IMG/VR virus record: IMGVR_UViG_3300028887_000070
Coordinates: 32,001-96,000 of that record
DNA: 64,000 nucleotides
From: a virus
Taxonomy: Duplodnaviria > Caudoviricetes
Strand: one strand, 5' to 3'
Made by a program: the position numbers and the translations under genes. This document shows, one piece after another, positions 26,438-37,648 of this stretch. Position 1 is the first letter of the stretch. Each line of letters begins with the position of its first letter. The notes under the pieces were generated by a model. That model searched no databases, had not been told where the DNA came from, and worked only from the letters and a program-made list of their open reading frames with translations.

Positions 26438-28144
26438 CTAGAACACTGGGTCAATAGGCTTGAATGATGGATCAGGCTGTATAGTGAGACTATAGAGGTT
26501 CATAATGCACTCCTTTGTGACGTTACGAGGACTTATACCGTCCATACCTATAAGGTTGATCTTACTGTCAGCAGCCTTCTCAAGTTCAGCATTAGCTTCG
26601 AGAGTATAGATACCCTTAACGATAGCAGTATCACCATCGAAGTCCATACCCATTACATCTATATTACCGTTAGAGATAGTAAGAGTAGGAGAAAACAGAG
26701 CAGCAGTGTTTCTACCAAGGTCTTCTGTTCTGATCTTAGGCCACCATCTATAGACTTTACCATCCATCATGATAGGCTCAGTCTCATTGGTAGACTTGAT
26801 GTTTATCTTAGATGGATACTGGTTGAGGTATCTGTCTATAGGGAATCTAGTTATCAGACACATCTTATCTGCTGTCATCTCACATGCCGCAAGATAGAAG
26901 AGATCACACCAAGTCATAGGCCTTTCTATGAGAGGATAACCTGAATAGTCTTTTTGATCCATGATATGCTCTGATGGTACTTTTCTTCCTTTGAAGAAGA
27001 TACACATCTTGTTGACATCGAGATCGAGCTTCTTCTCTTTTATAGTCTTTGTGAGTTCTGTTTTGTCTATAGGAATAGGTATAGGCTGGAAACGATTAGA
27101 ATAACCATGAACGAATCTCTCTATCTGTTTCACTATCTCTGTATCAGAGAACATGATCTGATAGTCTTCTATAGGAATAGCAGTCTCTACACCTTTCTTA
27201 TCCACTACAGGATACATAGTCTTACCACCGAACTCGTTCTCGAAGAAACGACGACAATAGTAGATGATGAATGGCTGGAAGAGTACTATAGCTGCCTCAA
27301 GAGGACATGCAGCATGATCCATATCGACCATGAGATCTTCAATGTTCTCCACCTTCAGGTTAGCAGCAGACATAACAAGACGTACACTATAGTCTACTGT
27401 CTTGTACATTACACCCTTCTTTACGATACCCATCTTTCCAGGAAGGTTACCGCTAGTCTCTTCACCATTGATTACAGTTCCAGCACCAAACCAATCGTAG
27501 ATCTGTTTTAGTGTAGCCTGTATTCTTCCCTTTGTAGCGTCTGCAAGACTTAGTCCATACTCAGCGGTCTCTTTAAGAGCCTTTGTAGCAATGATGAGAG
27601 AGCTATAGAGTTTGTTGATCTCTCCTACACCTATACTAGCTTGCTTAGTATCAACGTCTCTATAGTATGGTGGGATTACAGGACACTTCTTAACCCACAT
27701 CTGTCCCTTTACCTTCTCAAGGAACTTGATCTTGGTAGCACGATCTTTAGAACTAGACTCTTTAGCAGACCAATCTATCTTATCATAGTTTGCTTTGAAC
27801 CAGTTTAGGCCAGTAGAGCCATTAGGATCTTTAACAAGTTGTCCCTTAGCATCGATAGAGAAGTTCTCTGAGCCATGTACTATAGCTTCTACTTTCTTAT
27901 CAAGAGTACAGAGTGTTTTATAGACTAGAGGATTGAGGAACCATCCACCAAGATCTATGTATGCATAGATACCAGCTCTCTCAGCTTTAGTGATTCCGAA
28001 GATCTCGTTAGACAGAAGTCCATCTGGTGCTGGTGTTGGACCGTTAAAGAAGACAGGGTTGGTGATCTCTTTACAGTCGTTAACTTTGACGAAACGCTCT
28101 ACATCAAGTATACTTATATCGAAATGATTAGTTGACGAACTCAT
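26438..28144 (-). CDS. rpoC: Multisubunit RNA polymerase beta' N-terminal subunit (probably virion RNAP)
   Basis: PDGLLSNEIFG, PVIPPYYRD, GKMG...KTVDYSVRLV, ITRFPI and catalytic MDFDGD; late promoter 28170-28181. Confidence 0.9.
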   Translation of the reverse strand: MSSSTNHFDISILDVERFVKVNDCKEITNPVFFNGPTPAPDGLLSNEIFGITKAERAGIYAYIDLGGWFLNPLVYKTLCTLDKKVEAIVHGSENFSIDAKGQLVKDPNGSTGLNWFKANYDKIDWSAKESSSKDRATKIKFLEKVKGQMWVKKCPVIPPYYRDVDTKQASIGVGEINKLYSSLIIATKALKETAEYGLSLADATKGRIQATLKQIYDWFGAGTVINGEETSGNLPGKMGIVKKGVMYKTVDYSVRLVMSAANLKVENIEDLMVDMDHAACPLEAAIVLFQPFIIYYCRRFFENEFGGKTMYPVVDKKGVETAIPIEDYQIMFSDTEIVKQIERFVHGYSNRFQPIPIPIDKTELTKTIKEKKLDLDVNKMCIFFKGRKVPSEHIMDQKDYSGYPLIERPMTWCDLFYLAACEMTADKMCLITRFPIDRYLNQYPSKINIKSTNETEPIMMDGKVYRWWPKIRTEDLGRNTAALFSPTLTISNGNIDVMGMDFDGDTAIVKGIYTLEANAELEKAADSKINLIGMDGISPRNVTKECIMNLYSLTIQPDPSFKPIDPVF

Positions 28145-28294
28145 CGTAGTACCTCCTTATAAGTTTGATTATAGAATGGTTCACGCTTTAGAATCAGGTT
28201 CAAACGCAGGGTGGACTATATATTATAAAGGTGTACAAGAGAGTTGGTGATTCGATACTCTTGAGTACTATACTATACTAAGGAGGATCACATT

Positions 28295-28543
28295 ATGATC
28301 AATAGTTACAATCCACAGGCAGCACCAGCTCTGCCAACAAGAGAGGCTCAGATGACAGGACAGCCTATTAGCCTCGAGAGTCTGATGAATGAGTTCACAT
28401 TCATCACGACGAGCATCAATAATGGTACTCTGTCTGCTAGCGATCCTGAAGTTCAGATAAGAATTACAGAGCTGCAGAGTAAAATCACAGAGCTGCAGGG
28501 TGTATATCACTATGCAGCTGGAATGGGCATGATCCAGCGCTAG
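28295..28543 (+). CDS. Small early hypothetical protein
   Basis: AAGGAGG RBS, early promoter 28217-28226, terminator ~28563-28599; ITELQ repeated. Confidence 0.75.
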   Translation: MINSYNPQAAPALPTREAQMTGQPISLESLMNEFTFITTSINNGTLSASDPEVQIRITELQSKITELQGVYHYAAGMGMIQR

Positions 28544-28644
28544 ATCGTGCCCAGCCTCCTTGTAATCGGTCTGCAGCCCCAGCAGGCCGATTATTTTTTG
28601 TCTTGGAACATCACTATAATTATACAACCCTGAAAGGAGGACTC

Positions 28645-31392: not shown

Positions 31393-31395
31393 CAT

Positions 31396-31405
31396 TATAT
31401 ATTAT
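31396..31405 (+). promoter_or_regulatory. Representative early promoter TATATATTAT (also + 28217, 44153; - 26376)
   Basis: The exact 10-mer recurs upstream of non-structural genes and resembles the AR9 early consensus. Confidence 0.7.
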
Positions 31406-31463
31406 AGAGATGAGTCCCAAGGATATGTCCTTGGGGCATCTCTAATGAAAGGAGGAACAAGGC

Positions 31464-32300
31464 ATGATTTCATATGCCGATGAAGGGAGTAATCATCCCA
31501 AACACGACGTCGTGTGTATCTTTACTGATGGCGGTATACACGACGGACAATCATCAGCGTCATCAGTAATAGGCTTGCTCAGAAATGATGGAGAGAACGA
31601 GCCTTATCTGGATAAGATAGAGATCTTTTCCAAATACCATAGCAACTCTACGAACAACATAGCGGAGTTGTCAGCTATTCTCTTTGGTATAGAGAAGGCA
31701 TTTGAAAGGTACAAGAGTTCTGAAGATCATACTTACGCCTATCTGATCTTCTCCGACTCAGAGTACGCAATCCATACTCTCACAGAGTGGGTCTTTGGTT
31801 GGTATAAGACTTACACTTGTGAGAAGAGAAATGGAATCGTAGTTCCTTACATGCTCACTAAGTGCGGCACTCCAGTAAAGAACTGCGAAATTATCAGCGC
31901 TATCATCGGTATGATAGTGCATCATGATGAATGGTTCACACTACTTCAATTCGTCAATGTGAAGGGCCACACCTGGAAGAAGGGCGGCATCGAAGAGCAG
32001 ATGACTTACTACAAGAAAGCGAACCAGACAGACATTACAAGAAAAGAAGCTGTCTTTGTAACGAAGTATAATCACATTGTCGACAGAGTAGCTTCCAACG
32101 TATGTGATTGGGTCCAGAATGAGGGGTTCGATATCAACTTCAATGACAATGGAGACCCATGCATGCAATTCACAGTAAAGGGACTTAACTTCAAAGTTTA
32201 TGATTCAGCGGGCGATGGAGTTAGGTATTCCGACTATATGATCCTCAGTAGCGCGATCATGAGGCGCTATAGAGAGATTCTAAATCAAACACCGTTCTGA
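31464..32300 (+). CDS. rnhA: Ribonuclease HI
   Basis: IFTDGG, TNNIAELSAI, FSDSEY, VKN, VKGH, NHIVD; early promoter 31396-31405. Confidence 0.92.
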   Translation: MISYADEGSNHPKHDVVCIFTDGGIHDGQSSASSVIGLLRNDGENEPYLDKIEIFSKYHSNSTNNIAELSAILFGIEKAFERYKSSEDHTYAYLIFSDSEYAIHTLTEWVFGWYKTYTCEKRNGIVVPYMLTKCGTPVKNCEIISAIIGMIVHHDEWFTLLQFVNVKGHTWKKGGIEEQMTYYKKANQTDITRKEAVFVTKYNHIVDRVASNVCDWVQNEGFDINFNDNGDPCMQFTVKGLNFKVYDSAGDGVRYSDYMILSSAIMRRYREILNQTPF

Positions 32301-32317
32301 TGAAAGGAGAAAGAACG

Positions 32318-32848
32318 ATGAGGTTATACGAAAGAATCGCAAACGCAACTGCTAGACTCTCTATCGAATCTTATAACATAGTGAGCGTAATAGATCTTTT
32401 CAATGTTAGGGCGAACTATTCTGCATTCTACCATTACAATCTTGATAACTGCCTTATGGTAAATTATACAGAGTGCTTTGACATACATTACTGTTTCGTA
32501 TGCGATAACGGCTTTGTTGTTGAATATGAAGAAGAAAGATATAATATAAATCCCTATGACACCTATAATATCTATAACATAATGGTTCTCTATGGTGTTA
32601 TGGGCTATAAGCAAAACGATATAGCTAAAGCACTGAACACTTCTGTGTCTACTATAGGAAATAGGATAAAGATAATCAAGCAGATATTAGAGGTATCCGA
32701 TATAAAAGATTTAGATCCAGAAGATGCTGTCAAGATCAAATATGACCGTACCCACTTACGGTTATCTGATCTAAGCAACAGATTACAAGCAATCATCGAC
32801 AAGTATGAAAGGAGAAAGAACGATGGCAAGAATGAGTATAATGACTAA
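32318..32848 (+). CDS. Sigma-region-4-like HTH protein (paralog 1)
   Basis: GYKQNDIAKALNTSVSTIGNRI. Confidence 0.75.
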   Translation: MRLYERIANATARLSIESYNIVSVIDLFNVRANYSAFYHYNLDNCLMVNYTECFDIHYCFVCDNGFVVEYEEERYNINPYDTYNIYNIMVLYGVMGYKQNDIAKALNTSVSTIGNRIKIIKQILEVSDIKDLDPEDAVKIKYDRTHLRLSDLSNRLQAIIDKYERRKNDGKNEYND

Positions 32849-33251
32849 AGCAAACAAGGCAGCTAAGAGACTTGGTATCCGTCCTAGTCAGATTACACAC
32901 GTACATGATCTCTCAGAAGTCTCCTCAGAAGGAGCTAAGGGAATCATGATTGTATTCCAGGTAGCAGATGAGAAGTATGCTGCCATCGTGAGCGACAACG
33001 GACACATAAAGAAGTGGATCGTTGGCGAGAGACACGACAAGGTAGTTAACATGTCTACTAAGTCAAAGAAGACTATGAGACTCAACAACAACCAGTACAT
33101 CATATTCCTTCTGTATGCATACGGTTTCACACAGAGGGCAATAGCACATCTGATGGGTTGCAGCATAGAGCCCGTCAATAGAAGAATAGCAAACATTCGC
33201 CTTATGCTGGAGACTGCTAGTGTAGGCGACGAACTTGAAGAGGAGGACTAA
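32823..33251 (+). CDS. Sigma-region-4/LuxR-like HTH protein (paralog 2)
   Basis: LNNNQYIIFLLYAYGFTQRAIAHLMGCSIEPVNRRI. Confidence 0.75.
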   Translation: MARMSIMTKANKAAKRLGIRPSQITHVHDLSEVSSEGAKGIMIVFQVADEKYAAIVSDNGHIKKWIVGERHDKVVNMSTKSKKTMRLNNNQYIIFLLYAYGFTQRAIAHLMGCSIEPVNRRIANIRLMLETASVGDELEEED

Positions 33252-33253
33252 TT

Positions 33254-35062
33254 ATGAACAATCCACGTTTAACAATACCGTCACCTTGGATGACGGCAGA
33301 ACAACAGCACAAACCTTTAAAGACAACATTCGAGATCGATGGATACTCAGATCTAAGCACTATGCATACAGTCATTACTGTGAAGTCAGAAGGCTGTAAA
33401 GACATAACGCTGCATCTTGAAAGAGGTGGTAGAATCCCTGTCGATGACCCTAAAGATGGTTTCATAAGTTACTTCTTCAATGTACCAACACCAGGAGAGC
33501 CATCAAGTCGACTGGCATACATCAGAAAGTATAACAGTACAGATATCTCTTTGATGAATAAGTTCACGTTGTTCTTCACTAAGAACGAGTTTGAAAATGT
33601 CTTCGAAGAGCATGAACACTGCAATCTAACTAGAGGTAGAACTCTAACCAAACAGGACTACTGCTTCAATAGACCTATAGATCGTAGTATGTACGAAACA
33701 GGAGAAGCAGGAGAGTACAGAACACCTGAGGGTTATACAGGTGTATCATATCATAAGCGTAGTAAGGGTAATACTAATAAGTATGTCTCTGAATCTGTAA
33801 CTACACTTCCTTCAGTATATGCATCATACTACGAAAATGGAGATATCGGCAAGATCAGTGCTAACTTGGATGACATACACATAGATGTACATTACAATCG
33901 TGAAGGCAATATATGGGCTGTAGACTTCGGTGGTAATAGGGTATCATTAGACATAGACAAATTTATGTATAACATATCTACTACCATGGTAAAGTACTAT
34001 AGCGATCCAATCGGTAATCGCTTTTCATACACTAACATTGAACGATCTGTCAACAGTGATGTATGCACGAATGGTGTCATTGGATTTGTAAAAGAAGATG
34101 GATTCACTTCGTGCAATCCATTTGCTTCAAAGGATGAAGAGTTCATTGTAAACAAGATCTATGAAAGGGCAATGAATGAATTCATTCCAGAGGAGATCAA
34201 GAATCATGTCTTCAATAAGCGATCTCTCTTCTCTGTCAGAAAGATATCAACGCTGAACAATTCTTGTAGCTACTATCAGATTACGTATACCGATGACAAT
34301 GAAGTGAAGTACAATTCATTCTACAATAAATGTGCTATGCCGATCTATATAGCGTACTCATACACACAAGCTGATGGTAAGTATATTGAAGTGAAGAACT
34401 GTTATGATACGTTTATACCAGTATGGGCTAAAGAGGTCGTATATGAAACAATGACAGAGACTAGTCCTGATAAGTCGAACGTCAAGATCACAAACAGAAT
34501 AGGCAATACTACTGTCACGAAAGAGATCATCTATCTTGATCATGATAACAGAAACAAAACGTTATTCAAGGTCAATATAGAATCAATGATAAACAAGTAC
34601 CATGATATAGCTAAGTTCTTAAGCGATGTCATAGAAGGTGAAATCGATTTCAATGAGTATCTTGACGCTGTTGATGCTTACATAGATACCGAGAACGAGA
34701 GCAGGATAACTGTTCCAGTTCCAGAGTCTATCTATACATTCTTCAATAGTCTTATAGAAACAACAATGGATCATTCAACAATGGTTATACCTGTTACAAG
34801 TTTACCATACGGGAAGTTCAACTTTACCTACTTCAGAATGAACGACATCATAGACAACTTGATGGATCCTTGTAAGATTGATAGCTGGGTTCGTCAAAGT
34901 GGATCGTATTTCTATGAAGACGAAAGACTCAGACGTTACTTACAGCTCTTCAATAATATCGATTTCAACTCATTCATACTTCCTAAAGAAGAGGCTAAAG
35001 CATTGATTGAACGTGTAGATAAGCTGTTCCCAGAAGAAGACGGTGAAGGAGATGACTTTTGA
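33254..35062 (+). CDS. Large hypothetical protein (paralog A)
   Basis: 602 aa; shares blocks with 35738-37477. Confidence 0.75.
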   Translation: MNNPRLTIPSPWMTAEQQHKPLKTTFEIDGYSDLSTMHTVITVKSEGCKDITLHLERGGRIPVDDPKDGFISYFFNVPTPGEPSSRLAYIRKYNSTDISLMNKFTLFFTKNEFENVFEEHEHCNLTRGRTLTKQDYCFNRPIDRSMYETGEAGEYRTPEGYTGVSYHKRSKGNTNKYVSESVTTLPSVYASYYENGDIGKISANLDDIHIDVHYNREGNIWAVDFGGNRVSLDIDKFMYNISTTMVKYYSDPIGNRFSYTNIERSVNSDVCTNGVIGFVKEDGFTSCNPFASKDEEFIVNKIYERAMNEFIPEEIKNHVFNKRSLFSVRKISTLNNSCSYYQITYTDDNEVKYNSFYNKCAMPIYIAYSYTQADGKYIEVKNCYDTFIPVWAKEVVYETMTETSPDKSNVKITNRIGNTTVTKEIIYLDHDNRNKTLFKVNIESMINKYHDIAKFLSDVIEGEIDFNEYLDAVDAYIDTENESRITVPVPESIYTFFNSLIETTMDHSTMVIPVTSLPYGKFNFTYFRMNDIIDNLMDPCKIDSWVRQSGSYFYEDERLRRYLQLFNNIDFNSFILPKEEAKALIERVDKLFPEEDGEGDDF

Positions 35063-35427
35063 TGGAAACTTTGATTGAGCGTACTAATGAGGCTCTTAAG
35101 TTCATGAAGATAGGTCACAACGATCTCATTAGAACTCAGAACCTTTATAGAAACATTCCTGGCAACAATGGACCTACACTTGTAGGTACAATTCTTGAGT
35201 ACTATAATAAAGACGGCGTGAGAACTTACGCCGTCTACACCCTTACGGGATGGGCAAAGGAATGGCCCATAGACAAAGGCGACATTCTTGATATGATCTG
35301 GTCGATGGAATACAATGACTTCTCATATGAAGAGATCGCTCAGATACTCAATATAACTAAAGAGTCTGCTGAGATGAAGCATAGAGAAGCATGCGAACGT
35401 AAACTTGGAGGGGACTACGATGGCTGA
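35062..35427 (+). CDS. Sigma-region-4-like HTH protein (paralog 3)
   Basis: DFSYEEIAQILNITKESAEMKHREA. Confidence 0.75.
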   Translation: METLIERTNEALKFMKIGHNDLIRTQNLYRNIPGNNGPTLVGTILEYYNKDGVRTYAVYTLTGWAKEWPIDKGDILDMIWSMEYNDFSYEEIAQILNITKESAEMKHREACERKLGGDYDG

Positions 35428-35722
35428 TATATTTGGACGTGGTCTTGCTGCTTGCACGGTGATGGATATCGACCCCGACACAGTTATCAGCGTAAGGTCC
35501 ATCACTCTCGAAAAGCATCACAAAGTTAAAGATGTAGGTATATCGGTAGAAACTGATGACTACATAGGAGTTCTCATTGGAGACTTCGACAAATGTTATA
35601 AGAAGAGCACGGATTTAACAGTTATGAGAGAGATGCTCAAAGATGGTCTCAAGAAGACATACATCTCTCAGATTCTTGGTATAAGTCTGAACATAATAAA
35701 CGCGTTCAAGACTTCAATATAA
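35420..35722 (+). CDS. HTH protein (paralog 4)
   Basis: EMLKDGLKKTYISQILGISLNII. Confidence 0.7.
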   Translation: MADIFGRGLAACTVMDIDPDTVISVRSITLEKHHKVKDVGISVETDDYIGVLIGDFDKCYKKSTDLTVMREMLKDGLKKTYISQILGISLNIINAFKTSI

Positions 35723-35737
35723 ACGGAGGTAATTACA

Positions 35738-37477
35738 ATGATCGAAATTAAGATAGAAGGACGCACAGACGGAACAACAGCTAATGCTACCATCGCTGTT
35801 GACTTAGATCCTAACATGAAGGAGTATCATGAAAGCTACAACTTCGAATTCAGCATAGACTCACTTGACCCTAACAGATCGACATTCTGGTATAAGTGTG
35901 AGCCGCTCTTTAATATCAGACATTCAACGTCAACATCTCCTCTTTCCAAAACAGAGGAACTTAACCTCTATGATAGAAACCATGAAGGAAAGACTACAAG
36001 ACTTGTTGAAACAAGAATGTCTGGTACAACAATTCTTCCCGACAACCACAGCAAGTTCTCTAAGAAGTTAAAAAATCCCAATAGAATCAAAGGATATAAG
36101 ATAAAGAGAAACTGTTACACAGAATCTCCTTTTAGTAATGGTAAGCGCTTTAAGTGCATTCTTACCAATGACAACAATCCTTTCCTCAAAGATGTAGAGT
36201 TCAAACTGCTCCCCGAGATATCATCAGAAGTGGTACCTTCGAGATACGAAGATGTCAATCGTCAGTTAATCTCTGTTGATCGCAGTATCATCGCAGAGGT
36301 TGAAAACCACGAGATTATTGGTTTAAAGTTCCTTAAGCTCGGTAAGAATATAGAAGTTTCTCATTCTGGTGACGATGCTTTTGGTTCTACTATCGTCAAA
36401 AAGAATGGAAAGATTGAAGCTATTCATCATAGCAAACAGATTGGCTATATAACAACTAATGAAAATGGTAGTGCTTCTTATAAGACATTAGCAGACGGCA
36501 ATGATGAGTATGAGTTTGCTATTAGCGGAAAGGCTATGAAGCTTACATGGAGTATAATGAAACATGATGAAGAGATGAAGAACGCTATAGAGAGAGCTGT
36601 AAACATTGCATGTTATGATGTAAATATCTATTACATAAAAGGTGATCAGAATGGTATGCCTGCTAAAGAATACTTCTACCTGACAAATCACAGCTCAATA
36701 TGGGCACTTTATAGAGCTGAAATGAGATTCGATAAGGAACTGAACGATTATGTCGCTCAGCCCATCAAGATAGCATATGAGAATCTCAAAGAATGTGGTG
36801 CTGATCACTACAGCTATAAGTGTACATACTACAATCGCTGCAGTGAACATGCTTACTCAAAGTGTATTGAAGATGACCCTGAATACTCTAGATACACTAT
36901 CGAAACAGAAGACTTTAAGGTGTACTGTAGAGTAGACAATCCTTGTCTCGATGGTGATAGAAAGTATATAGTAAAGATCACAAGACACACTGGCGGTAGC
37001 GGATACCTCTCATCAATAATCAAGAGATTTGACTCTATACATACTCATGGTTCTAATAACTATATCAAAGCCATTGAGTCTCTTATAGCTCATAATCATC
37101 CTGGAGAGAGTGAGCCTTTGGGGATATTCAGATACCTTAAGATGATAGAAGATATCTGCAAGAATCCGCATGATGCTATGAGACACTCTTGGTCATCTAC
37201 ATTCGTCGATACAGCTAACACACTCAGTATTGTAGACATCGATCTTCTTCTCAATCCTGGTGATACGATAAGCTGGGCAAAGCTTATACTTTGGGTTGAA
37301 GAAAGATATAAGTCTGATCCTACTTGTGAAGAGTTACTTCTTCTCGATAGAATCGTTTGGGAAGATTTCATGCTTCCTTCAAGTATGGAGTATGATAAAG
37401 TATCCAAGGTAGACGTAGACGAACACGAGATCCCTACAGCTTCCAATGCTTGTGAAGCAATGTATATGGATAACTAA
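35738..37477 (+). CDS. Large hypothetical protein (paralog B)
   Basis: 579 aa; GGAGG RBS; terminator ~37490-37535. Confidence 0.75.
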   Translation: MIEIKIEGRTDGTTANATIAVDLDPNMKEYHESYNFEFSIDSLDPNRSTFWYKCEPLFNIRHSTSTSPLSKTEELNLYDRNHEGKTTRLVETRMSGTTILPDNHSKFSKKLKNPNRIKGYKIKRNCYTESPFSNGKRFKCILTNDNNPFLKDVEFKLLPEISSEVVPSRYEDVNRQLISVDRSIIAEVENHEIIGLKFLKLGKNIEVSHSGDDAFGSTIVKKNGKIEAIHHSKQIGYITTNENGSASYKTLADGNDEYEFAISGKAMKLTWSIMKHDEEMKNAIERAVNIACYDVNIYYIKGDQNGMPAKEYFYLTNHSSIWALYRAEMRFDKELNDYVAQPIKIAYENLKECGADHYSYKCTYYNRCSEHAYSKCIEDDPEYSRYTIETEDFKVYCRVDNPCLDGDRKYIVKITRHTGGSGYLSSIIKRFDSIHTHGSNNYIKAIESLIAHNHPGESEPLGIFRYLKMIEDICKNPHDAMRHSWSSTFVDTANTLSIVDIDLLLNPGDTISWAKLILWVEERYKSDPTCEELLLLDRIVWEDFMLPSSMEYDKVSKVDVDEHEIPTASNACEAMYMDN

Positions 37478-37569
37478 AAACGACGCGAAGGATAGGCTAG
37501 AGCATAACGCTCTAGCCCGTCCCATTTATTTTTTTAGAAAGGAAGTACACATGAACTCTTTCAACCCTT
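37478..37569 (-). ncRNA. Candidate late antisense sRNA (~90 nt)
   Basis: Perfect AACA-TAATGG-TA promoter (37569-37580, minus). The transcript carries an anti-AUG/anti-SD sequence and ends at the ggctagagc/gctctagcc hairpin plus U-run. Confidence 0.45.
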
Positions 37570-37648
37570 ACCATTATGTTACCTGGACGGACTAGATCAC
37601 TACTGACCGAACTTTATAATAATCAAATCTCGTAAAGGAGGGCTTAAC

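What the first reader, a model, noticed from the sequence alone, without database searches (positions are those of the whole stretch)
31396..37535. Tandemly duplicated [HTH-HTH-large protein] module in an early RNase H operon
Seen: four small paralogs share an N-terminal pattern (ERIANATARLSIESYNIVSVIDL / TKANKAAKRLGIRPSQITHVHDL / ERTNEALKFMKIGHNDLIRTQNL / GRGLAACTVMDIDPDTVISVRSI) plus a C-terminal sigma4-like HTH. Each pair is followed by a ~590-aa protein, and these two are paralogs (FEIDGYSDLSTMHTVITV vs IKIEGRTDGTTANATIAV; PIYIAY vs PIKIAY; FNNIDFNSFILP vs LDRIVWEDFMLP). All are tightly coupled under one early promoter and one terminator and are highly diverged. Inference: an undescribed, rapidly evolving three-component system. 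Options include heterodimeric sigma4 mimics that hijack host RNAP or promoters with a partner effector, or Aca-like regulators with large anti-defence proteins.
Basis: partly seen in the sequence, partly recalled or inferred. Interest (0 to 1): 0.75.

Follow-up and report, generated by a model that had tools for sequence, protein, structure and literature searches.

The report
Shuffled early accessory cassette, jumbo phage
Behind the RNase H gene of an uncultured cattle-rumen giant phage lies a dispensable, recombination-shuffled early gene cluster of four related small helix-turn-helix proteins and two related large proteins with no recognisable fold; the gene families are real and undescribed, but their job is unknown.

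Summary
The four small proteins form one family. A1 and B1 match at hhalign 97.6%, E 3e-12. The A1+B1 profile matches A2 at E 1e-5 and B2 at E 1e-4, and 0 of 60 column shuffles reach either score. The two ~590-aa proteins are distant paralogs over at least their C-terminal ~210 residues (95%, E 3e-8) and have the same secondary-structure order. All six genes follow RNase H behind an AR9-type early promoter (31396) and end at one terminator (37490-37535).

The trio is not a fixed unit. Close relatives with 90-99% identical flanks carry RNH-A1-B1-B2-C2, or RNH-B1-C1'-A2::B2-B2'-C2 remnant, or a single A1::C2-tail fusion. A more distant relative fills the slot with unrelated genes. Breakpoints sit at gene borders and at a 21-nt repeat, so this is a mosaic accessory hot spot. 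Similarity ranks do not fit a simple module duplication.

The small proteins carry a LuxR/sigma-70 region 4-type HTH, below Pfam cut-offs, and no sigma region 2. The large proteins match no family, fold or defence model.

My best guess at function is regulators or adaptors plus fast-evolving effectors. This is inference only. An earlier first-reader note (e1-5496175) flagged this same stretch.

The parts
31396..31412 (+). AR9-type early (virion RNA polymerase) promoter: TATATATTAT-N6-G, predicted start at G31412
   Evidence: The motif occurs 9 times in the genome against about 1 in shuffles. It fits the AR9 early consensus AAATATATATTAT-(6N)-G (PMC5312081). It is invariant in four relatives.
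31414..31437 (+). 5'-proximal stem-loop of the transcript (10-bp stem, loop TATG)
   Evidence: RNAfold gives -20 kcal/mol for the first 60 nt. Other early promoters of this genome are also followed by 5' hairpins, each of a different sequence. This makes it more likely an mRNA feature than an operator. It shows no covariation because it is almost invariant.
31464..32300 (+). RNase HI-like gene with a ~108-aa C-terminal extension; the conserved first gene of the operon
   Evidence: Pfam RNase_H 3.7e-11, 43.8 bits against a cut-off of 25.8; PHROG 531. It is 90-99% identical in relatives.
32300..32320 (+). 21-nt exact direct repeat, copy 1 (the SD/start region of A1)
   Evidence: the repeat finder D6. 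In L003 and L007, A1 is missing exactly between the two copies.
32318..32848 (+). A1, small HTH protein (176 aa, pI 5.3)
   Evidence: Sigma70_r4_2 at 18.2 bits, below the 25.7 cut-off. Paralog of B1. It is 86% identical in L002 and 46% in L005.
32805..32825 (+). 21-nt exact direct repeat, copy 2 (the SD/start region of B1)
32823..33251 (+). B1, small two-HTH protein (142 aa, pI 9.3), the most conserved member
   Evidence: Sigma70_r4_2 at 19.9 bits; weak Cro, HTH_3 and HTH_29 hits at residues 13-38; PHROG 1740 sigma factor 1e-6. The A5 profile matches the VraR DNA-binding domain at E 0.009. It is 80-97% identical in about 22 database clusters.
33254..35062 (+). C1, large protein (602 aa, pI 5.0) with a conserved acidic C-terminal tail ending in GEGDDF
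   Evidence: No Pfam, PHROG, PADLOC or NCBIfam family matches. Only five close relatives at 69-95% identity, plus a 31% allele in L003. The AF2 model is poor, pLDDT 46.
35062..35427 (+). A2, small HTH protein (121 aa, pI 4.9)
   Evidence: Sigma70_r4 at 21.2 bits, below the 24.1 cut-off. Family link at 82.5%, 1e-5. It occurs fused to B2 in L003.
35420..35722 (+). B2, small HTH protein (100 aa, pI 6.1); its HTH ends at the C-terminus
   Evidence: Weak GerE hit, E 0.19. Linked to B1 at 2e-4; the HMM of A1+B1 hits the L002 B2 at 2e-5. It is 43-96% identical across relatives.
35738..37477 (+). C2, large protein (579 aa, pI 5.6): beta-rich region 1-250, helical hairpin 257-289, beta-sheet 295-416, helical domain 422-544, disordered tail
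   Evidence: AF2 pLDDT 76.5, pTM 0.72. No convincing fold match: Foldseek TM about 0.1 and VIA best Z 7.7, both at background. An exhaustive profile search of 1.84 billion representatives found 7 hits, 6 of them from the same clade.
37430..37474 (+). Conserved C-terminal tail of C2 (SN[AS]CEAM motif). It is the least variable segment of the family and the right-hand recombination anchor.
   Evidence: It has the lowest column entropy in the C2 alignment. DNA similarity to L002, L003 and L005 resumes between 37294 and 37442. The tail is kept in frame in the L005 A1::tail fusion and in the L003 remnant. The motif is unique in the genome.
37490..37535 (+). Intrinsic terminator-like hairpin plus T-run that closes the operon
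   Evidence: Sequence; inverted repeat I17; conserved in relatives. The consensus scanner did not list it, because the T-run starts about 8 nt after the stem.

Best explanation
This is a dispensable, recombination-shuffled accessory cassette array at the 3' end of an early RNase H operon. The phage is an AR9/PBS1-type jumbo phage from the cattle rumen that carries its own multisubunit RNA polymerases.

Shown:
- The array holds one lineage-specific family of small proteins in four copies. Each has an N-terminal HTH-like motif, a short beta segment and a C-terminal LuxR/sigma-70 region 4-type HTH.
- It also holds one lineage-specific family of large beta-rich proteins in two copies.
- Close relatives gain, lose, fuse and swap these genes as cassettes at gene borders, while the flanks stay 82-93% identical in DNA.

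Inferred function:
- B1 is basic, carries two HTH motifs and is 80-97% conserved. It is most likely a DNA-binding regulator.
- The acidic, fast-diverging copies A1, A2 and B2 most likely work as dimer partners or adaptors.
- The large proteins are most likely the cargo: non-enzymatic binding proteins aimed at variable host or rival-phage targets early in infection.
- B2 and C2 are most likely a cognate pair.

The confidence of 0.45 is for the whole statement. The 'shown' part alone I would put at about 0.9 and the inferred function at about 0.35.
For: Family relationships.

Early unit: promoter motif enriched 9 against 1, matching the AR9 consensus, with a terminator.

Phage type: the split beta' subunit is 31% identical to Bacillus phage BpSp and Staphylococcus jumbo phages, and a PhiKZ_VTX-like gene lies downstream.

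Dispensable and mosaic:
- L005 (RNase H 99% identical) has only an A1::C2-tail fusion.
- L002 lacks C1 and A2.
- L003 and L007 lack A1 and carry a 31% C1 allele between a 97% B1 and an 86% A2.
- blastn breakpoints fall at 33252/33260, at 32319|32805 and between 37294 and 37442.
- L011 (gp28-like 63% identical) has unrelated genes in the slot.

Physical interaction hinted by natural fusions: A2::B2 in L003 and B1(1-72)::B2 in P0027.

B2-C2 co-divergence: pairs of (C2 % identity, B2 % identity) to the window are 100/100, 72/88, 60/55, 42/63 and 39/49. B1 stays at 80-97% throughout.

Charge: B1 has pI 9.3; the other small proteins have pI 4.9-6.1.

No catalytic motif is shared between C1 and C2; the GGSG loop of C2 is absent from C1.
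Against: - No function has been demonstrated.
- All HTH matches are below the curated cut-offs.
- No operator or regulon was found. The only palindrome at the promoter looks like a generic 5' mRNA hairpin and is unique in the genome.
- B1 does not co-vary with C1 (97% against 31% in L003), so 'cognate pairs' is not a general rule.
- B2-C2 co-divergence can also arise from plain linkage of adjacent genes.
- The large proteins match no anti-defence or defence model.
- The helical C-terminal domain of C2 was effectively not tested by the fold searches.
Confidence: 0.45

Rival explanations
1. Sigma-4 mimics or appropriators. The small proteins, especially the acidic A1, A2 and B2, dock on an RNA polymerase beta-flap or on host sigma. 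This would shut off or redirect host transcription, or tune one of the phage's own polymerases. The large proteins would be unrelated passengers.
For: The best family matches are sigma-70 region 4 / ECF sigma C-terminal HTH. Three of the four copies are acidic, and the A2 HTH has net negative charge, which is atypical for DNA binding. The genes are expressed early. A comparative survey reports no sigma factor in RNAP-encoding group 1 jumbo phages and discusses minimal one-HTH sigma factors and T4 gp33 binding the flap (PMC7824862).
Against: There is no sigma region 2, and all scores are under the cut-offs. The copies are dispensable and vary in number; L011 has none. The invariant gene order, a small gene directly upstream of a large one, and the B2-C2 co-divergence are left unexplained.
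Confidence: 0.15
2. Toxin-immunity or superinfection-exclusion type pairs. Each large protein would be a growth-arresting effector used against rival phages or against the host. The small HTH protein directly upstream would be its neutraliser and autoregulator.
For: The layout is a small HTH gene tightly coupled upstream of a large gene. B2 and C2 co-diverge. Cassette exchange and decay remnants are typical of conflict loci. Another relative fills the slot with three 500-560 aa proteins, one of which has a weak RHS-repeat match.
Against: No toxin, nuclease or other enzymatic domain is found, and no PADLOC match above noise. B1 is conserved while C1 is replaced. L005 keeps a small protein with no large partner, and L002 keeps B1 without C1.
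Confidence: 0.15
3. Accessory virion or host-range proteins. C1 and C2 would be packaged or particle-associated proteins that vary with the host, encoded next to the structural module. The small proteins would be their regulators or chaperones.
For: The island abuts a PhiKZ gp28-like vertex protein gene and a 999-aa virion-type gene. The proteins are large, beta-rich and hypervariable, as are receptor-binding proteins.
Against: The island lies in an early unit that ends at a terminator before the structural genes, which have their own upstream region. There is no match to any virion protein family or fold. Complete loss in L005 leaves the structural genes 92% identical.
Confidence: 0.1
4. Decaying duplicates with no current function. 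The region would be a recombination-prone junkyard drifting toward deletion.
For: Deletions, remnants and fusions occur in relatives.
Against: All six frames are intact, tightly coupled and have strong SD sites. Full-length homologs persist in many 225-235 kb contigs, at down to 25% identity and with conserved cores. B1 is held at 80-97%. The C2 model folds confidently from the alignment.
Confidence: 0.05

Closest known systems
LuxR/GerE and sigma-70 region 4 helix-turn-helix domains (e.g. the VraR DNA-binding domain, PDB 7ve4; Pfam PF08281, PF04545, PF00196)
   Same: The C-terminal ~45 residues of A1, B1, A2 and B2 align to these HTH domains. The hydrophobic and glycine pattern is typical: a helix, then G-[FYL]-x-x-x-x-I-A, then the recognition helix.
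   Different: All scores are below the gathering cut-offs. There is no receiver, autoinducer or sigma region 2 domain. Instead there is a family-specific N-terminal HTH-like motif plus a beta segment. Three of the four copies are acidic.
Minimal phage sigma-like factors and T4 gp33 (flap-binding HTH proteins; PMC7824862)
   Same: They are small phage-encoded proteins built around a single sigma-4-like HTH.
   Different: Those occur in jumbo phages that lack their own RNAP and are core late-transcription factors. Here the phage encodes its own multisubunit RNAPs, and the genes are early, multi-copy and dispensable. RNAP binding was not tested.
Aca-Acr type operons (an HTH autorepressor with anti-defence cargo behind a strong early promoter; own knowledge)
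   Same: A strong early promoter, HTH genes co-transcribed with fast-evolving cargo of unknown fold, and cassette-like variability between close relatives.
   Different: Here the HTH genes precede the cargo and are multi-copy paralogs. The cargo is ~590 aa, whereas most Acr proteins are small. No operator repeats were found. No known Aca or Acr family was matched, and no dedicated library was available.
Hyperplastic or mosaic accessory regions of large lytic phages (T4-type hyperplastic regions, own knowledge) and AR9 early transcription units (PMC5312081)
   Same: Conserved flanks, gene-border breakpoints, short repeats that mediate gain and loss, and an AR9-like early promoter.
   Different: The contents are two new paralog families that expand and shuffle within the slot. 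They are not a collection of unrelated small ORFs.

Membership tests
Sigma-70 region 4 / LuxR-GerE HTH superfamily (small proteins) | A match to the family profile at or above the curated cut-off | tested here: not met
   Best scores are 18.2-21.2 bits against cut-offs of 24.1-25.7. TIGR02937 gives 14-19 bits against 42.9. The E-values (2e-4 to 2e-3) and repeated hits to the same clan still point to this HTH type.
Sigma-70 region 4 / LuxR-GerE HTH superfamily (small proteins) | A helix-turn-helix that aligns to a solved member over the whole DNA-binding unit | tested here: inconclusive
   The A1/B1 family profile aligns to the VraR DNA-binding domain over 45 residues at E 0.009.
Bona fide sigma factor | A region 2 (-10 recognition / core binding) domain in addition to region 4 | tested here: not met
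   No Sigma70_r2 hit at E<=1 in any of the four proteins. The ECF models match only their C-terminal ~40 positions.
Tandem duplication of a three-gene module | Positional counterparts (A1-A2, B1-B2, C1-C2) are each other's closest relatives | tested here: not met
   A1-B1 gives 3e-12, against A1-A2 at 2e-3 and B1-B2 at 2e-4. C1-C2 do pair. Unequal rates could mask an old module duplication.
Obligate three-component system | Conserved co-occurrence of two small genes plus one large gene | tested here: not met
   L005 has 1 small + 0 large. L002 has 3 small + 1 large. L003 has 3 small genes (one a fusion) + 1 large + a remnant. L011 has none.
AR9-type early transcription unit | A promoter matching AAATATATATTAT-(6N)-G, enriched genome-wide in front of genes | tested here: met
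   The site CATTATATATTAT-AGAGAT-G lies at 31393-31412. The core motif is found 9 times against about 1 expected. The consensus comes from PMC5312081. Transcription itself was not measured.
Rhs/YD-repeat proteins (large proteins) | RHS/YD repeat profile matches; a beta-cocoon fold | tested here: inconclusive
   No RHS_repeat hit in C1, C2 or P0024. Foldseek lists Rhs and Tc cocoons only at TM about 0.1, and they are not among the VIA top rows. Only the unrelated L011 501-aa protein touches the RHS_repeat cut-off.
Known anti-phage defence proteins (PADLOC) | A profile match to a defence-system component | tested here: not met
   Only noise-level HTH hits (E 0.007-0.03) for A1 and B1, and none for C1, C2, A2, B2 or P0024.
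Aca-type autorepressor | Inverted-repeat operators overlapping the operon promoter that are bound by the HTH protein | tested here: inconclusive
   The only palindrome (31414-31437) lies just downstream of the predicted start. It resembles the 5' hairpins behind other early promoters and is unique in the genome. Binding cannot be tested here.
AR9 gp226 / phiKZ gp68 promoter-specificity subunits (large proteins) | Sequence or fold similarity to the solved subunits | tested here: inconclusive
   The C2 family profile has no PDB sequence hit at E<=10. These subunits are not among the listed fold matches. The helical C-terminal domain was barely tested.

The most novel reading that the evidence does not exclude
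The small proteins are a new class of sigma-4-like adaptors in a phage that brings its own multisubunit RNA polymerases. They pair as heterodimers and with cognate large beta-rich partners (B2 with C2). Together they form a modular, recombination-swappable early system that retargets transcription or neutralises variable host defences. It would amount to a cassette library of adaptor-effector pairs with a conserved C-terminal docking peptide.
Probability: 0.15. Interest if true: 0.75.

Novelty: new variant of a known kind. Interest (0 to 1): 0.42.

Why it matters
The accessory early genes of RNAP-encoding jumbo phages are almost entirely uncharacterised. A published survey reports no sigma factor in this phage group (PMC7824862).

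This locus offers a clean natural experiment. The promoter, RNase H gene and terminator are nearly identical across relatives, while the slot between them holds zero, one or two large genes and one to four small HTH genes. Natural fusions point to interacting partners.

If the small proteins act on an RNA polymerase, or the large ones on host defences, the cassette variants would map specificity directly.

If not, the result is still useful. It defines two ORFan families, their limits and a recombination hot spot in a widespread rumen phage clade.

Tried and rejected
1. Homologs of C1, C2 and B1 in cultured phages: none by megablast or tblastn.
2. C1 vs C2 by BLASTP and by shallow profiles: not significant. 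It became significant only after divergent members were added.
3. Fold identification of C2. Foldseek against PDB and BFVD gave only TM about 0.1 hits. VIA wide and second-look searches gave a best Z of 7.7 and 7.3, at stated background, mostly beta-barrels with rmsd 5-20 Å. The protein atlas gave nothing usable for C2 and only sub-0.9 GerE-type leads for B1.
4. A 7,228-aa hit (P0025) with 23 matched stretches. I rejected it as a lysine-rich repetitive protein scoring about 6 bits per repeat.
5. L011's large proteins as distant C-family members: no profile similarity.
6. An operator or regulon for the promoter palindrome: unique in the genome, and similar 5' hairpins of other sequence follow other early promoters.
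7. Internal late promoters: 4 AACA-N6-T[AG] matches on the + strand of 6.7 kb, close to my own estimate of about 3 expected by chance.
8. The C2 tail motif as a docking peptide shared across the genome: it is unique to C2.

Full report
**Context.** The window is bases 32001-96000 of a 231,846-bp IMG/VR virus record. It encodes split multisubunit RNA polymerase subunits. The beta' N-terminal half at 26438-28144(-) is about 31% identical to Bacillus phage BpSp and to Staphylococcus, Listeria and B. subtilis jumbo phages of the AR9/PBS1 type. Earlier notes of this scan call it a cattle-rumen phage with Ruminococcus hosts. I did not test the host.

**The genes.** Downstream of an RNase HI-like gene (31464-32300; Pfam RNase_H 43.8 bits) lie six tightly coupled genes on the + strand:

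| Gene | Coordinates | Length | pI |
|---|---|---|---|
| A1 | 32318-32848 | 176 aa | 5.3 |
| B1 | 32823-33251 | 142 aa | 9.3 |
| C1 | 33254-35062 | 602 aa | 5.0 |
| A2 | 35062-35427 | 121 aa | 4.9 |
| B2 | 35420-35722 | 100 aa | 6.1 |
| C2 | 35738-37477 | 579 aa | 5.6 |

The longer A1 and B1 ORFs that begin 'MKGERTM' read through the Shine-Dalgarno region. Database gene calls and relatives start at the inner ATG.

**Are the paralogies real?**
- Plain BLASTP supports only A1-B1 (6e-10). A1-A2, B1-B2 and C1-C2 are not significant pairwise.
- I collected relatives from the protein collections and from four IMG/VR contigs and compared profiles.
- Small proteins: A1 vs B1 gives 97.6%, E 3.3e-12. 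The merged A1+B1 profile gives 82.5%, E 9.9e-6 against A2 and 56%, E 1.1e-4 against B2. B1-B2 gives 2.2e-4 and B2-A2 gives 1.2e-3.
- Each alignment runs collinearly from the N-terminal motif, through a central D-x-G beta turn, to the C-terminal HTH.
- Column-shuffled targets score 13 ± 2.6 (max 21) against observed scores of 38.3 and 32.0, reached by 0 of 60 shuffles.
- An HMM of A1+B1 finds the L002 B2 at 2e-5 among 1,186 ORFs.
- Large proteins: significance appeared only once divergent members were added. It was 82%, E 1e-5, then 95.1%, E 3.1e-8 over C1 357-593 / C2 336-566.
- The N-terminal motif aligns in register but is not significant alone (E 0.77).
- The AlphaFold models show the same order of elements: two N-terminal strands, a beta-rich region, a helical hairpin, a second beta-sheet and a helical C-terminal domain (C2 pLDDT 76.5; C1 only 46).
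- No other copy of either family exists in the genome.

**Transcription unit.**
- The sequence at 31393-31412 reads CATTATATATTAT-AGAGAT-G. The experimentally defined AR9 early consensus is AAATATATATTAT-(6N)-G (PMC5312081).
- The core TATATATTAT-N6-[AG] occurs 9 times in the genome against about 1 in shuffles.
- A 10-bp stem-loop begins 2 nt after the predicted start. Other early promoters here are also followed by 5' hairpins of unrelated sequence. I read it as an mRNA feature, not an operator.
- After C2 there is a 9-bp GC-rich hairpin and a T-run (37490-37535).
- The promoter, hairpin, terminator and the region up to the next gene are nearly invariant in relatives.
- 'Early' rests on the promoter motif only.

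**What the relatives show.** Flanking genes are highly conserved: RNase H at 90-99% and the PhiKZ gp28-like gene at 89-95%. The slot between them varies.

| Relative | Content of the slot |
|---|---|
| L002 | RNH-A1-B1-B2-C2; no C1 or A2; B2 49% and C2 39% identical to the window |
| L003 / L007 | RNH-B1-C1'(651 aa, 31%)-A2::B2 fusion-second B2 of the L002 type-58-61-codon C2 remnant |
| L005 | One 220-aa gene: an A1 homolog fused in frame to the last ~20 codons of C2 |
| L011 (gp28-like 63%) | An NrdG-type activase, three 501-559-aa proteins (one touching the RHS_repeat cut-off) and two further paralogs; no member of either family |

- blastn places the breakpoints at gene borders. Similarity to L002 stops at 33252 (the end of B1) and resumes at 37442.
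- L003 lacks A1 exactly between the two copies of a 21-nt perfect repeat (32300-32320 and 32805-32825).
- L005 jumps from 32815 to 37406.
- Another database protein, P0027, is B1(1-72) fused to a complete B2.
- The region is therefore a mosaic accessory hot spot in which cassettes are exchanged, deleted and fused.
- It is not an obligate trio. Similarity ranks (A1 closest to B1) do not fit a simple duplication of a three-gene module.

**What the proteins are.**
- The small proteins' C-terminal ~45 residues match sigma-70 region 4, ECF sigma C-termini, and LuxR/GerE. All scores are below curated cut-offs. The family profile aligns to the VraR DNA-binding domain at E 0.009.
- None has a sigma region 2.
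- B1 also has weak Cro/HTH_3-type hits at residues 13-38. It is basic (pI 9.3) and is held at 80-97% identity across about 22 clusters.
- A1, A2 and B2 are acidic or neutral (pI 4.9-6.1) and diverge to 43-49%.
- The large proteins match nothing in Pfam, PHROGs, PADLOC or NCBIfam, in PDB sequences or in 50,697 phage records.
- An exhaustive profile search of 1.84 billion representatives returned 7 hits. Six are from this clade. The seventh is a spurious repetitive protein.
- Fold searches gave only background-level similarity to large antiparallel beta-barrels and sheets. The helical C-terminal domain was barely tested.
- The most conserved part of C2 is its disordered C-terminal tail with the SN[AS]CEAM motif. 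The tail lies on the conserved side of the right-hand breakpoints, so its conservation may reflect backbone linkage as well as function.
- C1 has a different conserved acidic tail ending in Phe.

**Mechanism.**
- Shown: the families, the early-type unit, dispensability and cassette exchange.
- Inferred: the small proteins act as dimers or heterodimers. The natural A2::B2 and B1::B2 fusions are Rosetta-stone hints.
- Inferred: B1 is the DNA binder, and the large proteins are non-enzymatic binders of variable targets.
- Inferred: B2 and C2 form a co-diverging pair. C2/B2 identities to the window are 100/100, 72/88, 60/55, 42/63 and 39/49, while B1 stays high. This pairing relies partly on matching contig lengths, and linkage alone can also explain it.
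- Rivals: sigma-4 mimicry of an RNA polymerase interface, toxin-immunity-like pairs, virion or host-range accessory proteins, and decay. All are weighed in the Rival explanations section. None is excluded except, largely, decay.

**Verdict.** This is a real and well-delimited feature: two ORFan families in a recombination hot spot of an uncultured rumen jumbo-phage clade. It is a new variant of the familiar 'plastic early accessory region with HTH regulators', not a demonstrated new system. Interest is moderate, and function remains open.

Noticed in passing
L011:2407-9777 (IMGVR_UViG_3300018495_000001): In a more distant relative, the slot between RNase H and the gp28-like gene holds other genes: an NrdG-type radical-SAM activase (Fer4_12, 8e-35), three tandem 501/559/530-aa proteins rich in Y-x-Y-D-x-x-G-[RK]-L-like hairpins (one reaches the RHS_repeat cut-off), and two paralogous 214/256-aa proteins. 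This is a different large beta-rich expansion in the same hot spot.
   Followed up: partly
window 32300-32320 and 32805-32825: A perfect 21-nt repeat covers the SD and start of A1 and B1, although the genes are only 27% identical in protein. It marks the exact borders of the A1 gain or loss in L003 and L007. A similar sequence precedes RNase H (31441-31460).
   Followed up: yes
genome-wide; e.g. window 28217, 31396, 44153, 26385(-): Early-type promoters (TATATATTAT-N6-G) are each followed, within 1-3 nt of the predicted start, by a stable hairpin of a different sequence. This suggests a general 5'-end protection feature of early mRNAs.
   Followed up: partly
window 28217-28594: An early-type promoter at 28217 and a strong terminator-like hairpin at 28562-28594 (13-bp stem, T-run) bracket a very short unit. 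It holds only an 82-codon ORF (28295-28543).
   Followed up: no
window 37569-37580 (-): A perfect AACA-N6-TA late-promoter match on the minus strand, between the operon terminator and the gp28-like gene. It points back toward the terminator. An earlier first-reader note proposed an antisense RNA here.
   Followed up: no
window 31464-32300: The RNase HI domain covers residues 17-170 only. The C-terminal ~108 residues match no family above noise (DUF6921, E 0.15), yet they are as conserved as the catalytic part in relatives.
   Followed up: no
P0008 (C2 family, 74% identical): One C2 homolog comes from an NCBI-sourced 225,648-bp contig. Even so, the INPHARED phage collection returned no match. 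A near-complete relative may therefore sit in GenBank without being filed as a phage, or it may have been withheld as too near.
   Followed up: no
P0024 / P0086 (594 aa, contig 228,760 bp): A third, more distant subfamily of the large proteins: 25% identical to C2, E 3.6e-29 to the C2 profile. It has a long acidic tail and lacks the SN[AS]CEAM motif. It bridges C1 and C2 in profile comparisons.
   Followed up: partly
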